A DNA stretch of 57,337 bases, counting the filler, from Bipalium vagum (taxonomy: Eukaryota): NCBI GenBank assembly GCA_037834085.1. It is 3 parts of 3 records of this genome, joined end to end, with 100 filler letters (N's around TTAATTAATTAA, not from the genome) between each part and the next. Parts side by side here need not be neighbours in the genome. Positions count along the whole stretch, not along the records: positions 1 to 19,247 come from JBBMKC010004183.1; 2 more parts are not named here. One strand, written 5' to 3'. Position numbers and translations under genes: made by a program. The notes beneath the pieces were generated by a model. That model ran no database searches. It had not been told where the DNA came from and saw nothing but the letters and a program-made list of their open reading frames with translations. Positions 77 to 47,131 of the stretch are shown here, piece by piece. Position 1 is the first letter of the stretch. The number at the start of each line of letters is the position of its first letter.

Positions 77-950
77 TTTAATTTTATTAATTTTAATTTT
101 AAATTTCTTTTCTCTAATTATGAGCGTAATAGTAATAATAATAAAAATAAGAATACTAATAGTGATTTATAATTTATTTAAATAATTTATTTTTTCTCTG
201 ATTAGCACTGAGCATAAAAAATATATGGCAAGGGCATTTCAGACGAACGAACTGATTAACGACTGATCAGTATAAAAGGGGTTGCCTGAGTCAGTCGGAG
301 GCCCACAAGAGATTTCAACATTATTTTTGCAATTTTTGTTGAACCTTGCAGAAGAACGTTGTTCCAGTATCAGAAGAAAATTTTTAAAGGGTTATTAATG
401 TATTTTTCTCATATGCAAGAGGATTTTACAATGAGGCCTGGGACTTCCTGGTGACCTTAACAGGGCTTAACGGATAGCCCAGGGACCCATTGTCGTCACG
501 GTGAGCACACGTTTTCTTTTCTTATTTTTTCTCTCAGTAATTGTAAGAGATATCATTTAATAATTCATTTTAACGAAATCTATTTTTTTATTGTTCGTAA
601 TTAATTATTTTTATTTATAATGCAGTTGAGAATCGATTTGCTATCATTTATTAAGACATTTAATATTTCATTAACTAATTTTGTGAGTTGAGACCTTGTT
701 TATTATTTTGTGTAGATTGTTGAATAAAATTTGATTTCTTTGATTCAGTTATTTTGTTAAAATTAAGTGTGATTATTTTGATTCGGTAAAGAGAGGGTAA
801 GTTTTTTGTGATTTGTTTCAATTCATACATCCAGTGATAAGGTTTTTTGTGGCTGGTTTGGATTCGATTGTCTTAAAACGAACGTTATTGACAATAAGTG
901 AAGGAAGTCAGAAATTTGAATTGACACATTACTATTTCAGGTTTAGTACA
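74..950 (+). mobile_element. Solo LTR-like element, copy 1 (5' boundary uncertain)
   Basis: TATAAAA at 271-277, GC-rich hairpin block at 421-510, AATAAA near 723, TGA(A)GGAAGT motif and ...TAGTACA end at 950. Same order of motifs as the elements at 8236 and 39170. Confidence 0.7.
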
Positions 951-1817: not shown

Positions 1818-2272
1818 TTAATCATCGTATTCTTCTTCATCAAATGACAATAAAGTTTTGTTTGACTTTTTAATATTTGTATCCTTTATTTCCGGGTCTG
1901 ATTTTCGTTTAGATCCACTCGGCTTGTTAAATATAACTTTGACTTTTAAATCTGCTTTTGAAAAATCTTTAAGTTCCTGTTCCTTATCAGATTTTCTTTT
2001 ACATAAAGAGTCTACAAATTCAGTGGCTTCTTTTTCAGTTACTTTACTACTTTCATCTATTACAATTTGAGGTCTTTCGTCTTCTCTATCTGGTTCATTA
2101 TTTGGTTGTTTAACTTCAGAAATAAACTAAAATAATGTAAAGTCATAAATTAACCAAATAATACTTTATCATCGATATTGTAATCCTTTTTTATTCCTGA
2201 TCTAATTTTAAAATCTGAAATAAATTTTGGTTCTTCAGACTCAAAAAATTTAATTCTGTTATTTCTTGACAT
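1818..2272 (-). CDS. KIAA1143: KIAA1143/DUF4604-family small protein, 2 exons (2272-2165, 2126-1818), 138 aa
   Basis: A 38-nt GT..AG intron joins MSRNNRIKFFESEEPKFISDFKIRSG... to ...DREDERPQIV...IFNKP...LLSFDEEEYDD*. The EPxF..FK, EDExPQxV and C-terminal LLSFxxEE motifs match DUF4604. Missed by the ORF track. Confidence 0.85.
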
Positions 2273-6279: not shown

Positions 6280-7020
6280 TTACATTCTAACAAATACAAA
6301 TTCATTGTAATGTTGCCACTTACTTTCTTCCGAATCCTGACCGGGTCGATTGTCCAGCCCAGCGGAGTTTGTTCCCGATCCACAAGAACCAACCATTTTA
6401 TACCCATACAAATAAAGTGCGTCGAAAGCCTGTTCCAAGACATTGTGTTTGAGAAAAAATCTTGATGAATACCGGTCGCCTTTTGTTCCAGAATACCCAC
6501 ATCCTGGATCTCTACTCATATTTAATGTATCTTGAAATACTTCTTTGCACGATGAGACTTTTCCACAGACAAGTATTCGGGACAATTTTCTAAATTTTAC
6601 ATCCGCTAGTCCGTCTCTACCGAACGCAAACGTACCCCTATATCCTATTGTTATCACAGTTGGACCACTGTCTTGGATTTGTTTCTCTAAATATTCTATC
6701 ATTTCTGGAAAACCGAAAAATCCAGCCTCATTTATCAAACCAGCCATTTCTCTAAAGGTATCTGGAAGATGGAATTCCGATTCACTGTTTTTCTTCCAAC
6801 GTAAAAAATCCAAAATAAATCTAAACAGAGCACCATTTCGATCGATAAATAACCGTTTCTTGGAGTCAATTAACATTTCTGAGGGCTGCTTCAGATAGTC
6901 AACGATAAGATTTGCCAGTTTGGAATTGGGAAATTGATCAACGAGGGTCGATTTGAATGAAGCATACGCAATACCCCCGACATTCAATTCAACTATTTTA
7001 TCTTCGGACATACTTGACAT
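6280..7020 (-). CDS. BTB/POZ (T1) domain protein of the KCTD8/12/16 family (GABA-B receptor auxiliary-subunit type, T1+H1 domains), intronless, 246 aa
   Basis: VELNVGG, FIDRNGALFRFILDFLR (T1 domain); ITIGYRGTFAFGRDGLADVKFRKLSRILVCG...SRFFLKH..LEQAFD...W.HYNEFVF (H1 domain). Confidence 0.95.
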   Translation of the reverse strand: MSSMSEDKIVELNVGGIAYASFKSTLVDQFPNSKLANLIVDYLKQPSEMLIDSKKRLFIDRNGALFRFILDFLRWKKNSESEFHLPDTFREMAGLINEAGFFGFPEMIEYLEKQIQDSGPTVITIGYRGTFAFGRDGLADVKFRKLSRILVCGKVSSCKEVFQDTLNMSRDPGCGYSGTKGDRYSSRFFLKHNVLEQAFDALYLYGYKMVGSCGSGTNSAGLDNRPGQDSEESKWQHYNEFVFVRM

Positions 7021-8235
7021 CTTCGCAAAAAATAAATTGAACTCAAAAATGATGTAGCAAAAGAAATGTCGTCAGGTATTTTTACCTAGTTTTGAGGGAA
7101 AGAAATTGTCGAATAATGTCTCATGATTGCTCTAAAAATGCATCCCAGACCATGGCAGAACACACAACATCAATTAATGAGCATGCTTACAGAAAAGAAT
7201 ATTCCAAAATTAGAGCATACTTAATCAATAAATCGTAAATTTTCCAGAATTCATTTCAAACTGAAATTCTTAATTAATTTATATAATAAAATTAATTTTT
7301 TTTATTAAAATGACGGTTTTAAATTTTTTGTTTAATTTTCAGTTTTAAATCATATTATTTTTGGATTATATTACAAAATAAAAAGATTGTGAAAATAGTT
7401 TAAATTTATCATAAAATTTGAAAAAAATCATATTATTCAAAAATATTTTAAGTTCCAATAAATTAATCAAATTAAACTTATTAATGGAAATTTTTTTTTA
7501 TTAATTAAATAAAAAATACTGATAATTATATTTACATAGGATGTGTATAAAGTAAGCATCCGATTTTGGAACTCAGCAATATATTATTATATTATATATA
7601 TACCCAGTTTACATTTTTCTAAGACATACAATTTCCGAAATTTAATGTAAATGTTTAATTGTTTTAATGAATCGATGTAATCAAATTTAATTTGAGTAAA
7701 TTCAAATTTTAATAATATTCTCAAATGAATAAAAATGGAAAAAATGTTGTATTGATTGGAAAAGGTTAAAATGGAATCAGTCATATCAGTCACATGGAAT
7801 TTAGGACACTTTAAGTGGAATAAGATACATACAGTGAGGAAAATGAGAAAGATATTTGCAAAATTCAGAGATTTGGAGCATAATAATAACCACAATAATA
7901 AAAATTAACTTGATTTCAAGAAACCTTTTCAGTTTTTTCTAATATTTTACTTTACAGAAAATTTTAAATTTCTACAGGTCTTCAAATAATCTAAAAATAG
8001 TTGAAAAAGTATTAAATATTAACAAACTATTTTAACTATTTAAAATTAAAGGTTCACATCGGTTAAAATTCACATCGTAAATCAACAAAAAATTTATTAG
8101 ATTATTATTATTTATTTATTTTTGAATAATATACATGACAGTTAAAAATATATGGAAAGGTCTTGAATGAATCTCTGAAATTAACAATTAAAATATTAAT
8201 TAACATAAAAAGAAATAATATAAAAAGTTTATACT

Positions 8236-9178
8236 TGTTGAGTTGTAACAATAATAATAATGCTGACAATAATACAATAATCTCAGTTTTAATTGGTAAG
8301 ATAAAAACTATAATAATTATAATAATAACGACAATTAATAGATAATGATGACCGTAAGGATCATAATAATAATAACAATAATAGAAATAATTGTGCAATT
8401 AACCTCGGCGTCGAGATTTGGAATAGCAATCGTGCTCCGTCGTTGGAGTTATTAAATTCTTCTGTCTCGGGGTGGAGACAGAAATAGCAATTAGAGGCTA
8501 TTAATGGAAATAGCCGTCTCGAAGCGTAGGGATTGGTAATCGTAGCCGAATCTCTACGACTATATAAAAAGACGGCTATTCCCATTAATTTGCCCAACAG
8601 AAATACGACAGACAATACAGAACTACGAGAGACGATTCAGAACTACGAAAGGCGACATAGAACTATGAGAGACGATTCAGAACTACGAGAGACAATATTA
8701 TTCCAGGCAAGTGGATATGACGACGCAGAAGGATTTAACAAGGGAACTGCGAACTTGGGAACCCCTGGCGACCTGAGAGGGGCCTAGAGAGCGACCCGGG
8801 AACCCCTTGTCGATCTTGGTGAGACCGTTTCATTTTACTCTCGACTTTTGTAATAATTTCTTTAATCTCTTTTATTAGAACAGTAACAGTATTTAATTTT
8901 TTTATTATTATTCTTGGTGACATTTTTATTTATTGGACTCATTGATTATAGGATGATTTATAGAAGTGCATTGTCGTCGTGGTCATTATTTTCCATTGTG
9001 ATTCTGTTTTATTGAAATAAATTATTGTAGAAGTTTTGATTCACTTCTTAGGGAGCGGATACAGTATTATCGTTGGTTTTTTGATTCGGATAAGGTTTAA
9101 AAGGGGAACGAACACTACATTTTTATAGAAGTGAGGAGTCACGAGTACACGTTACTTCGTGAAAGTATTATAGTAACA
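8236..9178 (+). mobile_element. Solo LTR, copy 2 (943 bp), probably Ty3/gypsy
   Basis: TGTT...AACA ends flanked by a 4-bp target-site duplication TACT (8232-8235 / 9179-9182); TATATAAAAA at 8561; AATAAA near 9016; hairpin block at 8731-8827. Confidence 0.85.
8598..8697 (+). repeat. Five tandem 20-nt units (consensus CAGAACTACGAGAGACRATW) inside LTR copy 2
   Basis: Units start at 8598, 8618, 8638, 8658 and 8678. Confidence 0.9.
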
Positions 9179-13400: not shown

Positions 13401-13486
13401 CATTTACCTGCCAAGCCGGGAAAATATAAAAAAATACTATATAAAAAAGGAATAGTTGTATTTCTCAAAATATATAAAAATGATTT

Positions 13487-15022
<1,536 letters not shown>

Positions 15023-21548: not shown

Positions 21549-22335
21549 TACAAAGGTTGTCTTAAGGTTTGCATAGAGACATAAAAATAAAGCAAAGAGG
21601 ATTGAAAATGTTTTATTGCTTTTCAAAATATTCTCCACAAAGATTTATACACTTTCCCATGCGTTGAAATCAATTGTGAAAGCAATTATTCCATTTATCA
21701 GTTGTAATACCAAAAATTTCCAATTTGAACATTTCGATTTCCTCTTCCGGTGACTTGAGCCGTTGGCCACGAAGTTTATTCTTCATGTTTGGAAATGTGA
21801 AAAATACATTTGGACGTAGGTCAGGACCATGTGGTGGATGACCCAATAATTCTATATTTTGAGATGATAAAAATATGTTATTGCTAGAGCTGTATGTGAA
21901 CTAGAATTGTCGTCATGAAGTATGATTCTCCGTTTCATATTTGTTCTTCGAAAAACTGAAAATATTTATAATTTATTATTGTATGGCAAATGTATTGTTG
22001 TATGTCTTGCGCAGTAACCGTTTTTCGATTTTGTAAAGAAATTGTAGAGATATGGCCTGCTTTTTGAGACAAACGGTACGATCATCTGATTTGAGAAACT
22101 GCTAGAACGGGTAACCTTTATCTGATTTTCCTCAGATTGGAATACCCAAACACAAAATTGATTTTTCTTTTCAGGCTTGTACGAATAAATCTGTGATTCG
22201 TTACCACTGACAATATTGTACATATTTTTTGAGTTTCCATTGTTGTGTCTATTCCAGGGTTTTTGGCACCAGTTCACTCGAGATACTTTTTGTTCATCAG
22301 TTAGGAGATTAGGGATCAAAGGGGAAACTAACTTC
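21549..22335 (-). mobile_element. Degenerate mariner (DD34D), 3' two-thirds
   Basis: IPNLLTDEQKVSRVNWC, IVSGNES.IY, LHDDNSSSHT, HPPHGPDL, KCINLCGEYFEKQ*, then a TA-flanked end. Confidence 0.88.
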
Positions 22336-22419
22336 CTCGTAAATCACTTATTTTCATTTGAAACAAATTTACAAATGAAATTTAGTTGAGCTTAACAAAC
22401 TTAAAAGAATGAAAATGTT

Positions 22420-30562: not shown

Positions 30563-31303
30563 TTAGGTTTTCAAAATCTCTGGATAAACATTTTCCAAAT
30601 ACCACTGAAATGATTGGCACTTTAGATTCTTTCTAAGCTTCTCCCTTTTACGAATGTCTCCATAATAATGATCCCGAGCCTCGGGGCGAATTTTAAAAAA
30701 TTTTTCTATGTAATTGTCCATCCAAACACGAGACATCCTTAACGTATTCAGCAACCAATGATCTCCACCTTCTGAATTCCCATATGGTTTCTTAGCTCTA
30801 AAGATGTGGCCAACCTGAAAGAAGTTGAAAGACAATAAAACTAAAACAGAATTGCACTCGTGAGCATGGTAAGATTTCGATAGTTCCTCCACATTGCCAA
30901 ACACGAAAAGACATTTCTAAATTTTCTGCTCCCCATGTTTTCATTTCTGGATCAAAGCCACCAAAACGACGATACATCGCTTTGGAAATGGCAAAGTATC
31001 CTCCACTGAAAGTTGGCGTACTACACATATAAAGAATAACGATATTTAATTAACAATTCGATATTACGTAATAGGCTCTATTGAATTTGCGTCAATATTT
31101 AAATTTTGCACCCAAGTGAAGTATAAGCCCCAATTAAAACCACCTTTAACAATTGGAGTTCTGGTGTACTCGAACGATTCCGGATCAATTAAATCAACAG
31201 TTGGAACGACAACTTTCTTCATTGGATCTTTAACTACCTCAGAAATTAAGGGCAGCAGCCAATTGACGTTCACTTCAGTATGGCTATCAAGATACACAAG
31301 AAT
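30563..31303 (-). CDS. GALNT11: Polypeptide GalNAc transferase, GALNT11/pgant35A-like, 5'-partial; exons 31303-31068, 31020-30858, 30814-30563
   Basis: YLDSHTEVNVNWL (DxH), PIVKGGFNWGLYF.W, TPTFSGGYFAI, WGAENLEMSFRVWQCGG, PCSR|VGHIFR..KPYG, CQSFQWYLENVYPE; 47- and 43-nt GT-AG introns. Confidence 0.9.
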
Positions 31304-35432: not shown

Positions 35433-36951
35433 TATCGAGGACCTCTGAGCCTAAGAGCGAGAGGATTTTTATAATTAATAAATATAATTAATAAAATCAT
35501 TTTTAAAAGTAAAAAGGTAAATCGGTCAGAATTGTCTAATTCATTGTAATTTAATATCGATTTTAATAAAAGTATTAAACCATAAATCGTTTTCTCAGTA
35601 TATTTAATTAAAGACGAACACGAACAAAGCAACCTTCAACCGTTGAGACCTAAGGTACATTTACGCTCCAACCTTTAAAATCCTTTTTTATCCGTCAACC
35701 TAGGATCTTAACAATACTTTGAAAACTTTTTTCAAAAAAATTTTTCTGCCATCTTAAAAAAATTAAAAGTAAAAATGACGTTTTTAATTATTAAAAACTT
35801 AGGACCATCATTTTTAATTGACACAGGGGATCAATTAAAATGTGAAAATTTAAAATTATACAATCAAAAGTGTGAGATCAACTATAGAAGTAGTATTATA
35901 TATAATATATATACGAATATTTTATCTATCAACAAAAAATAATAACATCAAATTTCTTTATTAGTAAAAGCACATCTGATTTAATAAAGTGGATGATGGA
36001 AAACTCAATGCTTTTGTAGAAAACAAGCAGAAATAAGGATAATATTGGTTGGAGATGTTATTCAAAGGTCTGCCAAAAGTATGAGCGAAAGATTATGATG
36101 AAAACGTACATGCCAACAACGTGGAAAGTTAAAAGTTAAACTCATAAAATATATGCATGGCTGCAAGGATAATTATCGTTATTTTTTTATGTTGGAATTT
36201 ATGTGGCTCGACAGCGAGAGCGAAAATTGTTTGGAAAAAACGTAAGATTTACTAAAAAATTAAATAAATTTTTTCTATTATCGAATTATTTATTGTTATT
36301 CACATTTTTATTCATTTGTTAACAACAAATAATTAGTTGTTATTTTTTATTGTGATCGTCAATAAATTTTTTTGATAAATTAATAATAATAAATATAAAA
36401 TGATGTCATAAATGATCAATTAAAAATAATGGTCCAAAACTATTATTAGTCTTTTCGATAAAATAATCTAAATTTTTTCATTTTTCAATATCATTTAAAT
36501 TTTCATTTCCGTTTCTAATTTTTCAAAAAAGACTAACTTTTTTTATATCTTATAATATTGCTTTATTGTTTATTTCAAATAAATAGGGTAGATGGAAAAA
36601 ATTATTTGAGTGTAATATTTTTAAAAATTTTTAATGAGCGAAACGAATGATACGTGGTGAAAGAAAAACCCGAAAAGTTGTAAAATAAATCCAAGAGTCC
36701 TTAAAGAATCTCGAAACAGAAGTTCAATTATTCAATATTAGCTTTCACTAGGAGCAAAGGTCATCAACAGTTGACAAATATTCAACCAAATATAGCATGG
36801 GTAGGATATTATAAAACTTAACTAACAGTTAAACTGTTTAAAACTATATCATTATTAATTGATGAAATACTGGAGCAAAATACTGCCTATGACATATTAT
36901 TTCAATTATTTTCTTTGTATTGTAAACTATTTACTTTCTTAAGATTACCGT

Positions 36952-39169: not shown

Positions 39170-40013
39170 TGTTAGATTCACCAGAGACAAAACCACTAAG
39201 GTTCTATAATAATACTAGAAGAATAATAATAAAATAAAATTTTAAAAAATAATAATTATTAATAATAATTTGAAACTTATTAAAATAACAATTTATCTCG
39301 TCGTCAACAAGATAATTAATTATTAATAATAGGTTTAATAAAAATAATATTTTTTTCGCCGTTGAGATAATATTTAATAATTTATAGTAATACAAATGTA
39401 GCAATTTTCGTCGTCGATATAATTGAAACATAAATTTAGAATTAGACTATTGGAAAAATTCCAAAAGTAGAGATTTGCGGTATTCGGTCAATTACTGCTA
39501 CTATATAAAGCAAAGATTTCGTTTAGAAATGTACCGGAAAAAACTAAAATTTTTCAAAGACCTATCATTATTTATTATTGCGCTGAAAGATTATTTTATT
39601 AAAGAATTTCCTTGTGGTTTTTTTGCGTTCGAAGATGTTTTTAGTTAACTTACTGTTTTTGAGAAAATATTTTACCTTTAGTTTTCAAGCAACATGATGC
39701 AACAGGATTTTTCAATGGGTCCTGTCGAACTAGGGAACCTCTTGGCGACCGAAAACAGCCTAGTGGACGACCCGTGGACTCGTTGATCGCTCCGGTGAGA
39801 CCGGTCATTTTTCTTTATTATTATCTTATTATTAATTTTCTTTTTTATACATTTCAAAACATTTAAAATTGATGTTATTTAATTCAATTTGTGTGATTTT
39901 GGATAGATTTTCTAAGTTATTTAGATTTAATGAGTGAGCACGTTATCAACAAACTGAGGAGTTCAGAAAGTTGAACTTAAAGTTACACATTTCGATTTAG
40001 GAAAATAGTAACA
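39170..40013 (+). mobile_element. Solo LTR, copy 3
   Basis: TGTT...GTAACA ends, near-TSD ATAA/ATAC, TATATAAA at 39502, hairpin block at 39705-39804, TGAGGAGTT near the 3' end. Confidence 0.75.
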
Positions 40014-43077: not shown

Positions 43078-43701
43078 ATGGATTTGAAAAAAGAACATTC
43101 TCACGCTTATGTCTTTTTGGAGATGAAGCGTGGACGAGTGGCAACTGATGTGTACCAGCAACTGTTGGATACTCATTTAAGTAACGTTTCCTCGCGTGCA
43201 TCCATATTTCGTTGGTGAAAAGATTTCATTGAACATCCTCGTGTGATCAACACAGAAATGAGAGACCCTCAACTGCAATCACAGAGGAGAACGTGGGATT
43301 TGTCAAGCATTCCTTGGGTGAAAACCCGGAGACAATCTCTCAGAATGCTGGACGATTTAGTTGGTTGTAATAAGAATACAATAAGGCACATCGTTACCAA
43401 TATCTTAGGATTGAAGAAACTGGTTCAGTGTGTATGGATTCCACACATCTTGTCAGACATCAACAAAAAGGATCGAGTTGAGTGTGCCACAGAGATTGCT
43501 CGGATTCAGGATCAAAATGCAATGGATGACTGCCTACGTTACTGGACAACAGATGATGAAACTTGGATCTTATTCGATGCACTTCAGTCCCAAACGCAGC
43601 GCGGCCACGTAATTTTGCAAAAGTTGATGAATAACAAGACATTGCTTCTTTTTGAGTTCACAGGTGATGGAGAGTGCAACAGAAGCCGGGCCAAACAGTG
43701 A
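43078..43701 (+). mobile_element. Mariner transposase 5' remnant
   Basis: SIFRW*K, WIPHILSD..KKDRVE, TTDDETWI. Confidence 0.85.
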
Positions 43702-45998: not shown

Positions 45999-46320
45999 TA
46001 TTGGGTAGTCTAAAACGTTTCCGCCGATTTTGTTAAAAGACGGTGAAAATGTTCTTTATGTAGTTTGATTGAAATTGATTTTTTTTAATATATCATTTTA
46101 AATTTTATTATAATCCTAGCATTCAAATAATTTTAAGAAGTAGGCATTTTGATTATTTTATACAATTTTATTCATCTTTAGAAATAAATAGAAATAAAGA
46201 TGAAATGCAATACATAATGAAATTTTATTTCTTGAAAGTTAAAAATGCTACACAGGTAACTAAAAAGATTAATCCTGTTTATGGAGCGGATACGGTTTCG
46301 GATAGAAAAATACTGAGACC
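45999..46320 (+). mobile_element. Mariner 5' end
   Basis: TA-TTGGGTAGTCTAAAACGTTTCCGCCG TIR; YIMKFYFLKVKNATQVTKKINPVYGADTVS. Confidence 0.8.
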
Positions 46321-46488
46321 TTGTAAAAATCCTAAATGTGAATTAAAAAATTTTAAATGAAAATGCAACAGTGGGACGTAATAGCAAAGCTCTTCCAATT
46401 GCAGAGACACTCATTAGAACTTGAATAAAAGATGGCATATTCTATTTATTTATATTCATTTAAGATGATATGATACAATTTCACATTC

Positions 46489-47131
46489 TACAGGGTAGCG
46501 CATTTAAAACGTTCGAAAGTATTGATTGATAACTTCATTCCAAAGCAGGCATATTTGTTTTAATGTTTCACTTTGTGTGGAAATTTAAATCATAATTATT
46601 ATGGATCCAGAAATCAAAATTAAAATAATTAAATTGTTTTATGAATTCCAATCCTCAAATTTTGGTACGGTAACCACTCAGACGGGAATATAAATGGAAG
46701 ACACTGAGAACAACAACCATTAGGTGTGCGATTAATCATTTCGAACGTGAGGATAATGTTTATGTTATGTCAAGAAATATAAATTTTCCATCCAGATCGC
46801 CAGACTTGACAGCTCCGGATTTCTTTTTGTGGGGCAAGGACAATGTCTATCAAACCAACCCGCAAACCATCACAGACTTAAAAGATGCTATCAGAGATGC
46901 AGCCCGCAAGATTCCAAAAGAAATGCTCACAGCGGTAGCTTTTTGGCAAGATGCAGAACTTGCATAAATCTCAATGGAGGCCATCTTACCAATATTATAT
47001 TCAAATAGCAAAATACTGCATAAATCTCCATATTTTAATGACCATGTTTAATAAATAAAAATAAAATATTTATGGTTTTTTCCAGAGTTTTGATGTTTTA
47101 CTTTCGAACGTTTAAAATGCGCCACTCTATA
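46489..47131 (+). mobile_element. Internally deleted Tc1/mariner element (rosa/DD41D-like)
   Basis: TIRs TACAGGGTAGCGCATTTAAAACGTTCGAAAGTA / TACTTTCGAACGTTTAAAATGCGCCACTCTATA; N-terminus fused to FPSRSPDLTAPDFFLWG-KDNVY and NGGHL. Confidence 0.88.

What the first reader, a model, noticed from the sequence alone, without database searches (positions are those of the whole stretch)
8731..8827. Conserved, covarying RNA module inside a solo-LTR family (copies at 421-510, 8731-8827, 39705-39804)
Seen: three otherwise highly diverged LTRs keep one GC-rich block of about 100 nt, 150-200 nt downstream of the TATA box. It reads GCARNAGGATTT, then an outer stem whose sequence changes while pairing is kept (ACAATG/CATTGT; ACAAGGG/CCCTTGT; TCAATGGGTCC/GGACTCGTTGA with G-U pairs), an inner stem (CCTG/CAGG; CCCCT/AGGGG; CTAGG/CCTAG), a conserved near-palindromic apical motif GGYGACC, then an invariant GGTGAG (in a small hairpin in copies 2 and 3) and a T-rich run. 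The loop also has 4-5 nt of complementarity just 3' of the stem (GTGAC/GTCAC; GCGA/TCGC), a possible pseudoknot. Established: retroviral leaders use a palindromic kissing loop followed by a GGUGAG splice donor. Inference: an undescribed dimerisation/packaging plus splice-donor module, or a ribozyme-like fold. It does not match the hammerhead or HDV cores I can recognise.
Basis: partly seen in the sequence, partly recalled or inferred. Interest (0 to 1): 0.7.

Follow-up and report, generated by a model that had tools for sequence, protein, structure and literature searches.

The report
uORF-overlapped RNA hairpin in retroelement LTRs
The end-repeats (LTRs) of an abundant envelope-carrying retroelement in this animal genome keep a predicted RNA hairpin whose pairing survives sequence change, overlapped by a tiny reading frame and followed by a splice-donor-like site, which likely works as a switch deciding whether the element's RNA is translated or packaged.

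Summary
The block is real and lies in solo LTRs (TG..CA ends, 4-bp target duplications) of a very abundant family (559 exact core matches, 0 in control). Full-length relatives carry a tRNA-Trp-like PBS, zinc-knuckle gag and a gB-type env, as in described flatworm errantiviruses. In 153 copies from seven subfamilies the module is the best-kept LTR segment. It folds as a 76-nt bulged hairpin, mostly GNRA-capped, with double-sided changes at four pairs. Its inner stems, apical loop and pseudoknot come from three damaged copies: typical copies have a CCTAGG palindrome paired in the stem. No ribozyme or Rfam match. New here: upstream ATGs are almost all in one frame (158 vs 5 and 14), giving a 15-20-codon ORF that stops inside the hairpin, while the rest of the leader is purged of ATG (about a quarter of expected). 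GGTGAG varies like a splice donor and lies upstream of AATAAA, as in foamy viruses. Best reading, inferred and untested: a translation-versus-packaging switch working like HBV epsilon (0.4). No RNA data exist, and this scan had not noted it on other DNA.

The parts
8236..9178 (+). Solo LTR, copy 2 (subfamily A), TGTT...AACA, 4-bp target duplication TACT
8501..8588 (+). Long inverted repeat around the TATA box (predicted -39 kcal/mol)
   Evidence: not tested across subfamilies
8561..8568 (+). TATA box; R inferred to start about 30 nt downstream
   Evidence: sequence; start site inferred
8717..8776 (+). Short upstream ORF; in this copy frame-shifted by small deletions (reads MTTQKDLTRELRTWEPLAT)
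8731..8737 (+). Conserved GGATTTH, in frame with the ATG; resembles the G_GAU_UUU shift site of PEMV2
   Evidence: 82 of 144 copies; PMC5009743 passage
8738..8810 (+). Bulged hairpin, copy 2 (decayed): outer stem 8738-8744 with 8804-8810, damaged palindrome 8764-8768, GAGA loop 8775-8778
8818..8823 (+). GGTGAG, predicted 5' splice site (cut between 8818 and 8819)
   Evidence: use not shown
8824..8878 (+). T-rich, AG-poor stretch ending in the first YAG (candidate short intron or U1-proximal spacer)
9016..9021 (+). AATAAA, about 190 nt downstream of the donor
413..505 (+). Copy 1 (subfamily E): ATG 413, hairpin 428-493 with an internal deletion, GGTGAG 500-505; LTR runs from the contig start region to about 950
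39170..40013 (+). Solo LTR, copy 3 (subfamily D): ATG 39694/39697, hairpin 39712-39786, GGTGAG 39794-39799; flanks ATAA/ATAC

Best explanation
The module is a conserved, covarying hairpin in the LTR of an env-carrying gag-env retroelement, predicted to lie in the transcribed R region and overlapped by a short reading frame, and it likely acts as a translation-versus-packaging switch. Shown: the hairpin's pairing is kept across seven subfamilies; a short ORF, often from the first ATG after the TATA box, ends in a TAG inside the upper stem; the leader beyond it is purged of ATG; a donor-like GGTGAG follows, upstream of AATAAA. Inferred: ribosomes reading the short ORF would unzip the hairpin and then re-initiate or scan on to gag. 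RNA left untranslated would fold the hairpin, and the zinc-knuckle Gag would bind it. A second conserved strand can take over the 3' partner of the CCUAGG palindrome, which would free it for dimer formation. The donor would give a spliced env RNA and/or bind U1 to silence the poly(A) signal of the 5' LTR, as in foamy viruses.
For: Fold: least-decayed copies of four subfamilies fold into it unaided (z -3.7, -4.2, -3.6, -3.3, -1.9). 87.1% of cells pair against 83.5% shuffled and at most 55% slid; 134 cells with double changes against 77 (0 of 500 shuffles). At subfamily level 7 of 26 pairs vary and 4 change on both sides, against 17 of 839 control pairs. The loop is GNRA in 114 of 153 (GAGA or GAAA by subfamily). 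Translation: 158 ATGs in frame against 5 and 14 out of frame in 144 copies, at subfamily-specific distances 9, 12, 15, 21 and 24 nt. ATG after the module 209 against 767 expected, PBS-to-gag 50 against 207, U3 control 280 against 341. Palindrome and stop columns do not vary between subfamilies although paired neighbours covary. The competing helix pairs in 91% of cells. Donor: G-GTGAG fixed while -2 and +6 vary; AG 48 against 94 expected downstream. Gag has zinc knuckles. Precedent: translation across HBV epsilon melts it and blocks packaging (PMC3346311 passages).
Against: No RNA, binding, dimer or splicing data. RNAalifold on 62 decayed copies predicts no pairs. Two of five measures are not significant (167 and 193 of 500). 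The strongest mutual-information pairs are mostly phylogenetic. The P value is nominal because the fold was chosen on the same data, and there are only seven lineages. Pair 45-75 is C-A in subfamily D, and subfamily E has a UAAC loop. In subfamily B the ORF runs in another frame and stops at the second CCTAG (17 of 23). The module lies upstream of the donor and in every solo LTR, so it cannot alone select full-length RNA. One typical subfamily-A copy (L007) folds otherwise.
Confidence: 0.4

Rival explanations
1. Purely translational control: the short ORF plus hairpin sets gag output by re-initiation, shunting or ribosome pausing, perhaps with -1 slippage at G_GAU_UUH, and has no packaging role.
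For: Frame bias and ATG purge. The gag frame is open for 60-80 codons before its first Met in many copies, with a GTG in good context. PFV uses short ORF plus stem shunting (PMC2761275 abstract). G_GAU_UUU is a known shift site.
Against: The ORF stops inside the stem, not before it as in a shunt. The hairpin starts 0-1 nt after the heptamer. The -1 frame closes at the second TAG in four subfamilies and is open in two (read from copies), so no shifted product is conserved. It does not explain the invariant palindrome.
Confidence: 0.22
2. Foamy-virus-like RNA-processing control: the hairpin governs U1 access to the R-region donor, suppressing poly(A) use in the 5' LTR and allowing it in the 3' LTR, or is a Rex/CTE-like export signal for unspliced RNA.
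For: Donor lies in inferred R about 190 nt upstream of AATAAA, the foamy arrangement (PMC3694450 abstract and sections 3 and 11). An env needing a subgenomic RNA is present.
Against: The hairpin does not include the donor. Predicted donor accessibility is about equal with and without U3 in 29 copies. It does not explain the ORF.
Confidence: 0.2
3. DNA-level element: a cluster of self-complementary GG..CC repeats (factor-binding sites, or a single-stranded DNA hairpin used in strand transfer) whose RNA fold is incidental.
For: The module holds several short GG-N-ACC units, and the inner part of the outer stem is two copies of a palindromic unit with an A-A mismatch. At copy level G-U and A-C cells are similar (342 and 283).
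Against: Four double-sided changes, G-U rather than A-C at subfamily level on the plus strand, GNRA loop, and the ATG frame bias.
Confidence: 0.1
4. Self-cleaving ribozyme in the LTR.
For: Structured, GC-rich and conserved; ribozymes occur in other retroelement repeats (search listing PMC4209133).
Against: No Rfam match on the module at gathering score or E up to 5-10. Hammerhead core and HDV-like descriptor 0 of 153 on both strands. The fold is an unbranched hairpin.
Confidence: 0.04

Closest known systems
Flatworm GAG-ENV-POL errantiviruses with gB-type ENV (Chary and Hayashi, PMC13524379)
   Same: gag followed directly by a class III fusion gene (PF24664). A sister family with the same PBS shows gag-env-protease-RT order. 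The env resembles the Smed_errantivirus_1 row by eye.
   Different: No pol was seen in any module-bearing copy examined; an exonuclease-like ORF follows env. The paper's main text has no mention of splicing, uORF, stem-loop, secondary structure or packaging.
Hepadnavirus epsilon (PMC3346311)
   Same: [quoted passage not shown]
   Different: No Rfam match; no protein priming here (tRNA-type PBS); extra internal loops, GA bulge and GNRA cap; resemblance is of topology only.
Foamy virus R region: major splice donor upstream of the poly(A) signal (PMC3694450), SII palindrome (PMC5874298), sORF shunt (PMC2761275)
   Same: Donor in a long R upstream of AATAAA; palindrome with the same CCUAGG core (review gives UCCUAGGA); short ORF near a stem in the leader.
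   Different: Unrelated retroelement group with zinc-knuckle Gag. The palindrome is inside the LTR and predicted paired. No predicted 5'/3' refolding of the donor. The ORF ends inside the stem.
Retroviral DIS followed by SD (HIV-1 SL1/SL2, ASLV L3; PMC5874298)
   Same: 6-nt palindrome shortly upstream of a GGUGAG donor.
   Different: Known DIS palindromes are in apical loops downstream of the PBS. Here it is upstream of the PBS, in every LTR, and stem-paired in the best fold.
Anakin BEL/Pao elements with chuvirus glycoprotein (PMC7642597)
   Same: LTR retroelement carrying a Monjiviricetes-type fusion gene.
   Different: 4-bp duplications and gag-env order; the sister family's RT motifs look Ty3/gypsy-like (by eye); no LTR RNA element in the passages read.

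Membership tests
Solo LTR of an LTR retroelement | TG...CA ends, target-site duplication, same repeat 5' of PBS and gag elsewhere | tested here: met
   17 of 61 copies with both ends found have a 4-bp duplication, none longer. PBS directly after the family's LTR end in 8 of 30 gag loci.
gB-type GAG-ENV-POL errantivirus | gag followed by a class III fusion gene | tested here: met
   zf-CCHC and PF24664 hits in L204, L230, L236, L239
gB-type GAG-ENV-POL errantivirus | Ty3/gypsy pol downstream of env | tested here: inconclusive
   Not seen in module-bearing copies; protease and RT found only in a module-less sister family; contigs are short; no RT tree made
gB-type GAG-ENV-POL errantivirus | PBS complementary to a host tRNA | tested here: inconclusive
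   One base from the PBS class labelled Trp_CCA in the paper's table; no tRNA gene among 29 of 252 matching loci scanned
Retroviral dimerisation initiation site | Conserved 6-nt palindrome | tested here: met
   CCTAGG is the commonest form in all seven subfamilies, exact in 88 of 153
Retroviral dimerisation initiation site | Palindrome exposed in an apical loop | tested here: not met
   Paired in the best fold; exposed only in the weaker alternative fold
Retroviral dimerisation initiation site | Palindrome-dependent dimer in vitro | not testable with these tools
   Cofolding gives only the extended duplex any hairpin can form
5' splice site | G-GTRAG conserved with free flanks, intron-like sequence downstream | tested here: met
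5' splice site | Spliced junction in RNA | not testable with these tools
   No RNA holder listed
Hammerhead, HDV-like, twister, pistol, hatchet ribozymes | Catalytic core and fold | tested here: not met
   Rfam none; descriptors 0 of 153 for hammerhead and HDV-like; a twister-like word on the minus strand in 27 of 153 lacks its stems
Hepadnavirus epsilon | Lower stem, bulge, upper stem, loop | tested here: met
Hepadnavirus epsilon | Match to the epsilon models; protein priming from the bulge | tested here: not met
   No Rfam hit; element has a tRNA-type PBS
-1 frameshift cassette | Slippery heptamer, spacer, stimulator, conserved open -1 frame | tested here: not met
   Heptamer in frame in 82 of 144, but spacer 0-1 nt and the -1 frame is not conserved open
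Ribosome shunt (PFV, CaMV type) | Short ORF ending just upstream of a stable stem | tested here: not met
   Stop lies inside the upper stem in 123 of 153

The most novel reading that the evidence does not exclude
An invertebrate env-carrying Ty3/gypsy-type lineage has its own epsilon-like switch inside R: a ribosome reading a short ORF opens a GNRA-capped hairpin whose stem hides both the stop codon and a dimerisation palindrome, coupling translation, dimer formation and packaging in one 76-nt RNA, next to a foamy-like splice donor.
Probability: 0.3. Interest if true: 0.75.

Novelty: new variant of a known kind. Interest (0 to 1): 0.55.

Why it matters
Structured leader signals are well mapped in vertebrate retroviruses and hepadnaviruses, but my searches found none described for the env-carrying Ty3/gypsy elements of invertebrates. 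This is a compact element with natural compensatory variants, testable as a short RNA. It would show how such elements sort their RNA between translation and packaging, and that foamy-virus and HBV solutions arose again independently. With well over 559 copies, each carrying a TATA box, short ORF and donor, it could also shape host transcripts.

Tried and rejected
Rfam: nothing on the module. RNAalifold gave no consensus pairs on decayed copies. The gag next to the LTR in L025 belongs to another element with its own LTR and PBS. A first PBS pattern gave 5 unrelated places. GGTGAG as a second PBS: it matches the PBS start in subfamily A, but the base before it is T, C or G by subfamily; rejected. 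Pseudoknots: not conserved. Intron-less LTR copies: one pattern hit, which is a substitution, and none among held copies; uninformative, since only unspliced RNA should be copied. No RNA holder listed; the one run laid was contigs, probably the source DNA, and none of 15 of 42 joints shown began at the donor. Homologues elsewhere: 3 viral-contig matches to the core are unrelated; 0 in metagenomes; no protein homologues for gag or the exonuclease-like ORF at near lengths. The structured model found no module in the sister family's loci scanned. Peptide-level selection on the short ORF: only 4 of 10 variable columns are third positions, so not supported. Donor refolding with U3: none predicted. 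One search timed out and was rerun smaller. Rows dropped: 36 of 189 model hits were truncated or of abnormal length and left out of the 153; alignment A3 used 100 loci.

Full report
Observation. The window is three stretches of a 441-Mb, 27% GC animal genome. The block is present three times, as stated. Copy 2 lies in a 943-bp repeat (8236-9178) with TG..CA ends and a TACT duplication. Of 61 copies with both ends found, 17 have a 4-bp duplication and none a longer one. An 18-base core has 559 exact matches and the reversed control 0, so the family is large.

What the LTR belongs to. In 8 of 30 loci found with a neighbouring gag, the LTR end is followed by a primer-binding site, a 0.4-1.6 kb U-rich leader and a zinc-knuckle gag. 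The site is one base from the class labelled Trp_CCA in the supplement of PMC13524379; the host tRNA was not found. Separate copies show a Monjiviricetes-type fusion gene after gag (PF24664) and an exonuclease-like ORF further on (lead only). No pol was seen in them. A module-less sister family with the same PBS has env, protease, ankyrin repeats and RT. PMC13524379 (abstract, passages, supplement rows) describes this gag-env-pol order with gB-type env in flatworms, and the env resembles its Smed_errantivirus_1 row by eye. The flatworm label for this genome comes from unchecked earlier notes.

Conservation. 153 near-complete modules of 189 hits fall into seven subfamilies by their flanks. Between subfamilies the module keeps 63-81% identity against about 51% shuffled. 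Unanchored flanks are at background, and TATA-, AATAAA- and end-anchored segments are lower in 8 of 10 comparisons. It lies 80-245 nt after the TATA box and about 190 nt before AATAAA, so in R by inference.

Structure. Averaged pair probabilities and pair tallies give one long hairpin (model columns, numbered on copy L007): outer stem 19-30 with 83-94, an 8-nt 5' bulge, 40-42 with 79-81, 45-53 with 66-75, a GA bulge, and a 3-bp cap with a tetraloop. Intact copies L163, L149, L174, L077 and L271 adopt it unaided; L007 does not. Subfamilies differ on both sides at 19-94 (A-U, U-A), 23-90 (G-C, U-A, U-G, C-G), 45-75 (C-G, U-A; C-A in D) and 53-66 (C-G, U-A, U-G). That is 4 of 7 variable pairs against 17 of 839 control pairs; nominal P 6e-6, inflated because the fold was chosen on these data. 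On a sequence-only alignment of 103 matches, 87.1% of cells pair (shuffled 83.5%, slid at most 55%) and 134 cells change on both sides (shuffled 77); two other measures are not significant. The loop is GNRA in 114 of 153 and UAAC or UAAU in subfamily E. Against: RNAalifold finds no pairs in 62 decayed copies, and raw mutual information is dominated by descent.

The window copies are atypical. All three have lost the A of CCTAGG. The A-less form occurs 6 times genome-wide against 559, and two of the six are in this window's first stretch. I cannot explain this.

Short ORF. Within 45 nt upstream of the conserved GAT, 158 ATGs are in frame against 5 and 14 out of frame in 144 copies, at different distances in different subfamilies. 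Counting lineages, about five distinct positions are all in frame. The frame ends at the TAG of CCTAGG, present in 123 of 153; real copies read, for example, MTMQKDLTRGPSELGNP (L007) and MQHEFSIAPIELGNP (L066). An open frame with a Met 12-40 codons up is seen in 77 of 153; in subfamily B an extra T moves the stop to the second CCTAG (17 of 23). The peptide itself shows no codon-level constraint. Downstream, ATG is purged in all seven subfamilies (209 against 767), and between PBS and gag (50 against 207, 12 loci), but hardly in U3 (280 against 341). This implies that the unspliced leader is scanned. The gag frame is open well before its first Met, with a GTG in good context.

Donor. G-GTGAG is fixed while the bases at -2 and +6 vary. 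The next 50 nt are about 60% T and AG-poor (48 against 94 in 125 copies; E is the exception, its first YAG being at 31-39 nt), with no depletion further on. Host introns of 44-47 nt are visible by eye in a kinase gene. Use of the donor is not shown.

Mechanism. I commit to a translation-versus-packaging switch (0.4). The fold, ORF frame, ATG purge and donor pattern are shown computationally. Melting by ribosomes, Gag binding, dimer formation and splicing or U1 binding are inferred. Precedents: HBV epsilon is melted by translation across it (PMC3346311, passages); the foamy donor in R suppresses the 5' poly(A) site (PMC3694450, abstract and sections 3, 11); the foamy SII palindrome (PMC5874298, passages and section 11); the PFV shunt (PMC2761275, abstract only); the PEMV2 shift site (PMC5009743, passages); Anakin (PMC7642597, passages). 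These are resemblances; membership tests for epsilon, classical DIS, shunt, frameshift cassette and ribozymes each fail a defining feature. The ribozyme words were recalled.

Novelty. Subscription papers, repeat databases and bioRxiv supplements were not seen. Verdict: a real, apparently undescribed retroelement leader signal; a new variant of a known kind; interest 0.55.

Noticed in passing
window 440-456 and 8757-8773: Two of only six genome-wide copies lacking the A of CCTAGG lie in one 19-kb stretch and belong to different subfamilies; the third window copy has a substitution there. Unexplained.
   Followed up: partly
window 8501-8588: [quoted passage not shown]
   Followed up: no
L231:3717-5003 (+), L225, L236: ORF after env with features of a DEDD/RNase T-type exonuclease (atlas score 0.91; no Pfam hit or near-length homologue).
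   Followed up: partly
L223, L323, L326, L327: Sister element with gag, env, protease, ankyrin repeats, a second protease and RT; 'ankyrin' does not occur in the main text of PMC13524379.
   Followed up: partly
L202, L208, L223 between gag and env: A stretch that looks ubiquitin-like by eye in both families; no Pfam hit.
   Followed up: no
L192-L221 leader: The leader after the PBS carries 2-8 partial repeats of the PBS, and gag is open 60-80 codons before its first Met, suggesting a non-AUG start.
   Followed up: partly
window 35433-35712: 3' part of an LTR of the sister family (same end as L191), without the module.
   Followed up: partly
L087-L115: Another abundant LTR element with a very short LTR, a different PBS and a two-knuckle gag.
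   Followed up: no
window 1818-2126, 6280-7071, 13465-14932, 30563-30916 (all -): Host gene pieces by eye: a BTB/KCTD-like protein, an AGC kinase, a GalNAc-transferase-like exon; several mariner-like relics at 21966-22343, 43219-43701, 46079-46967.
   Followed up: no
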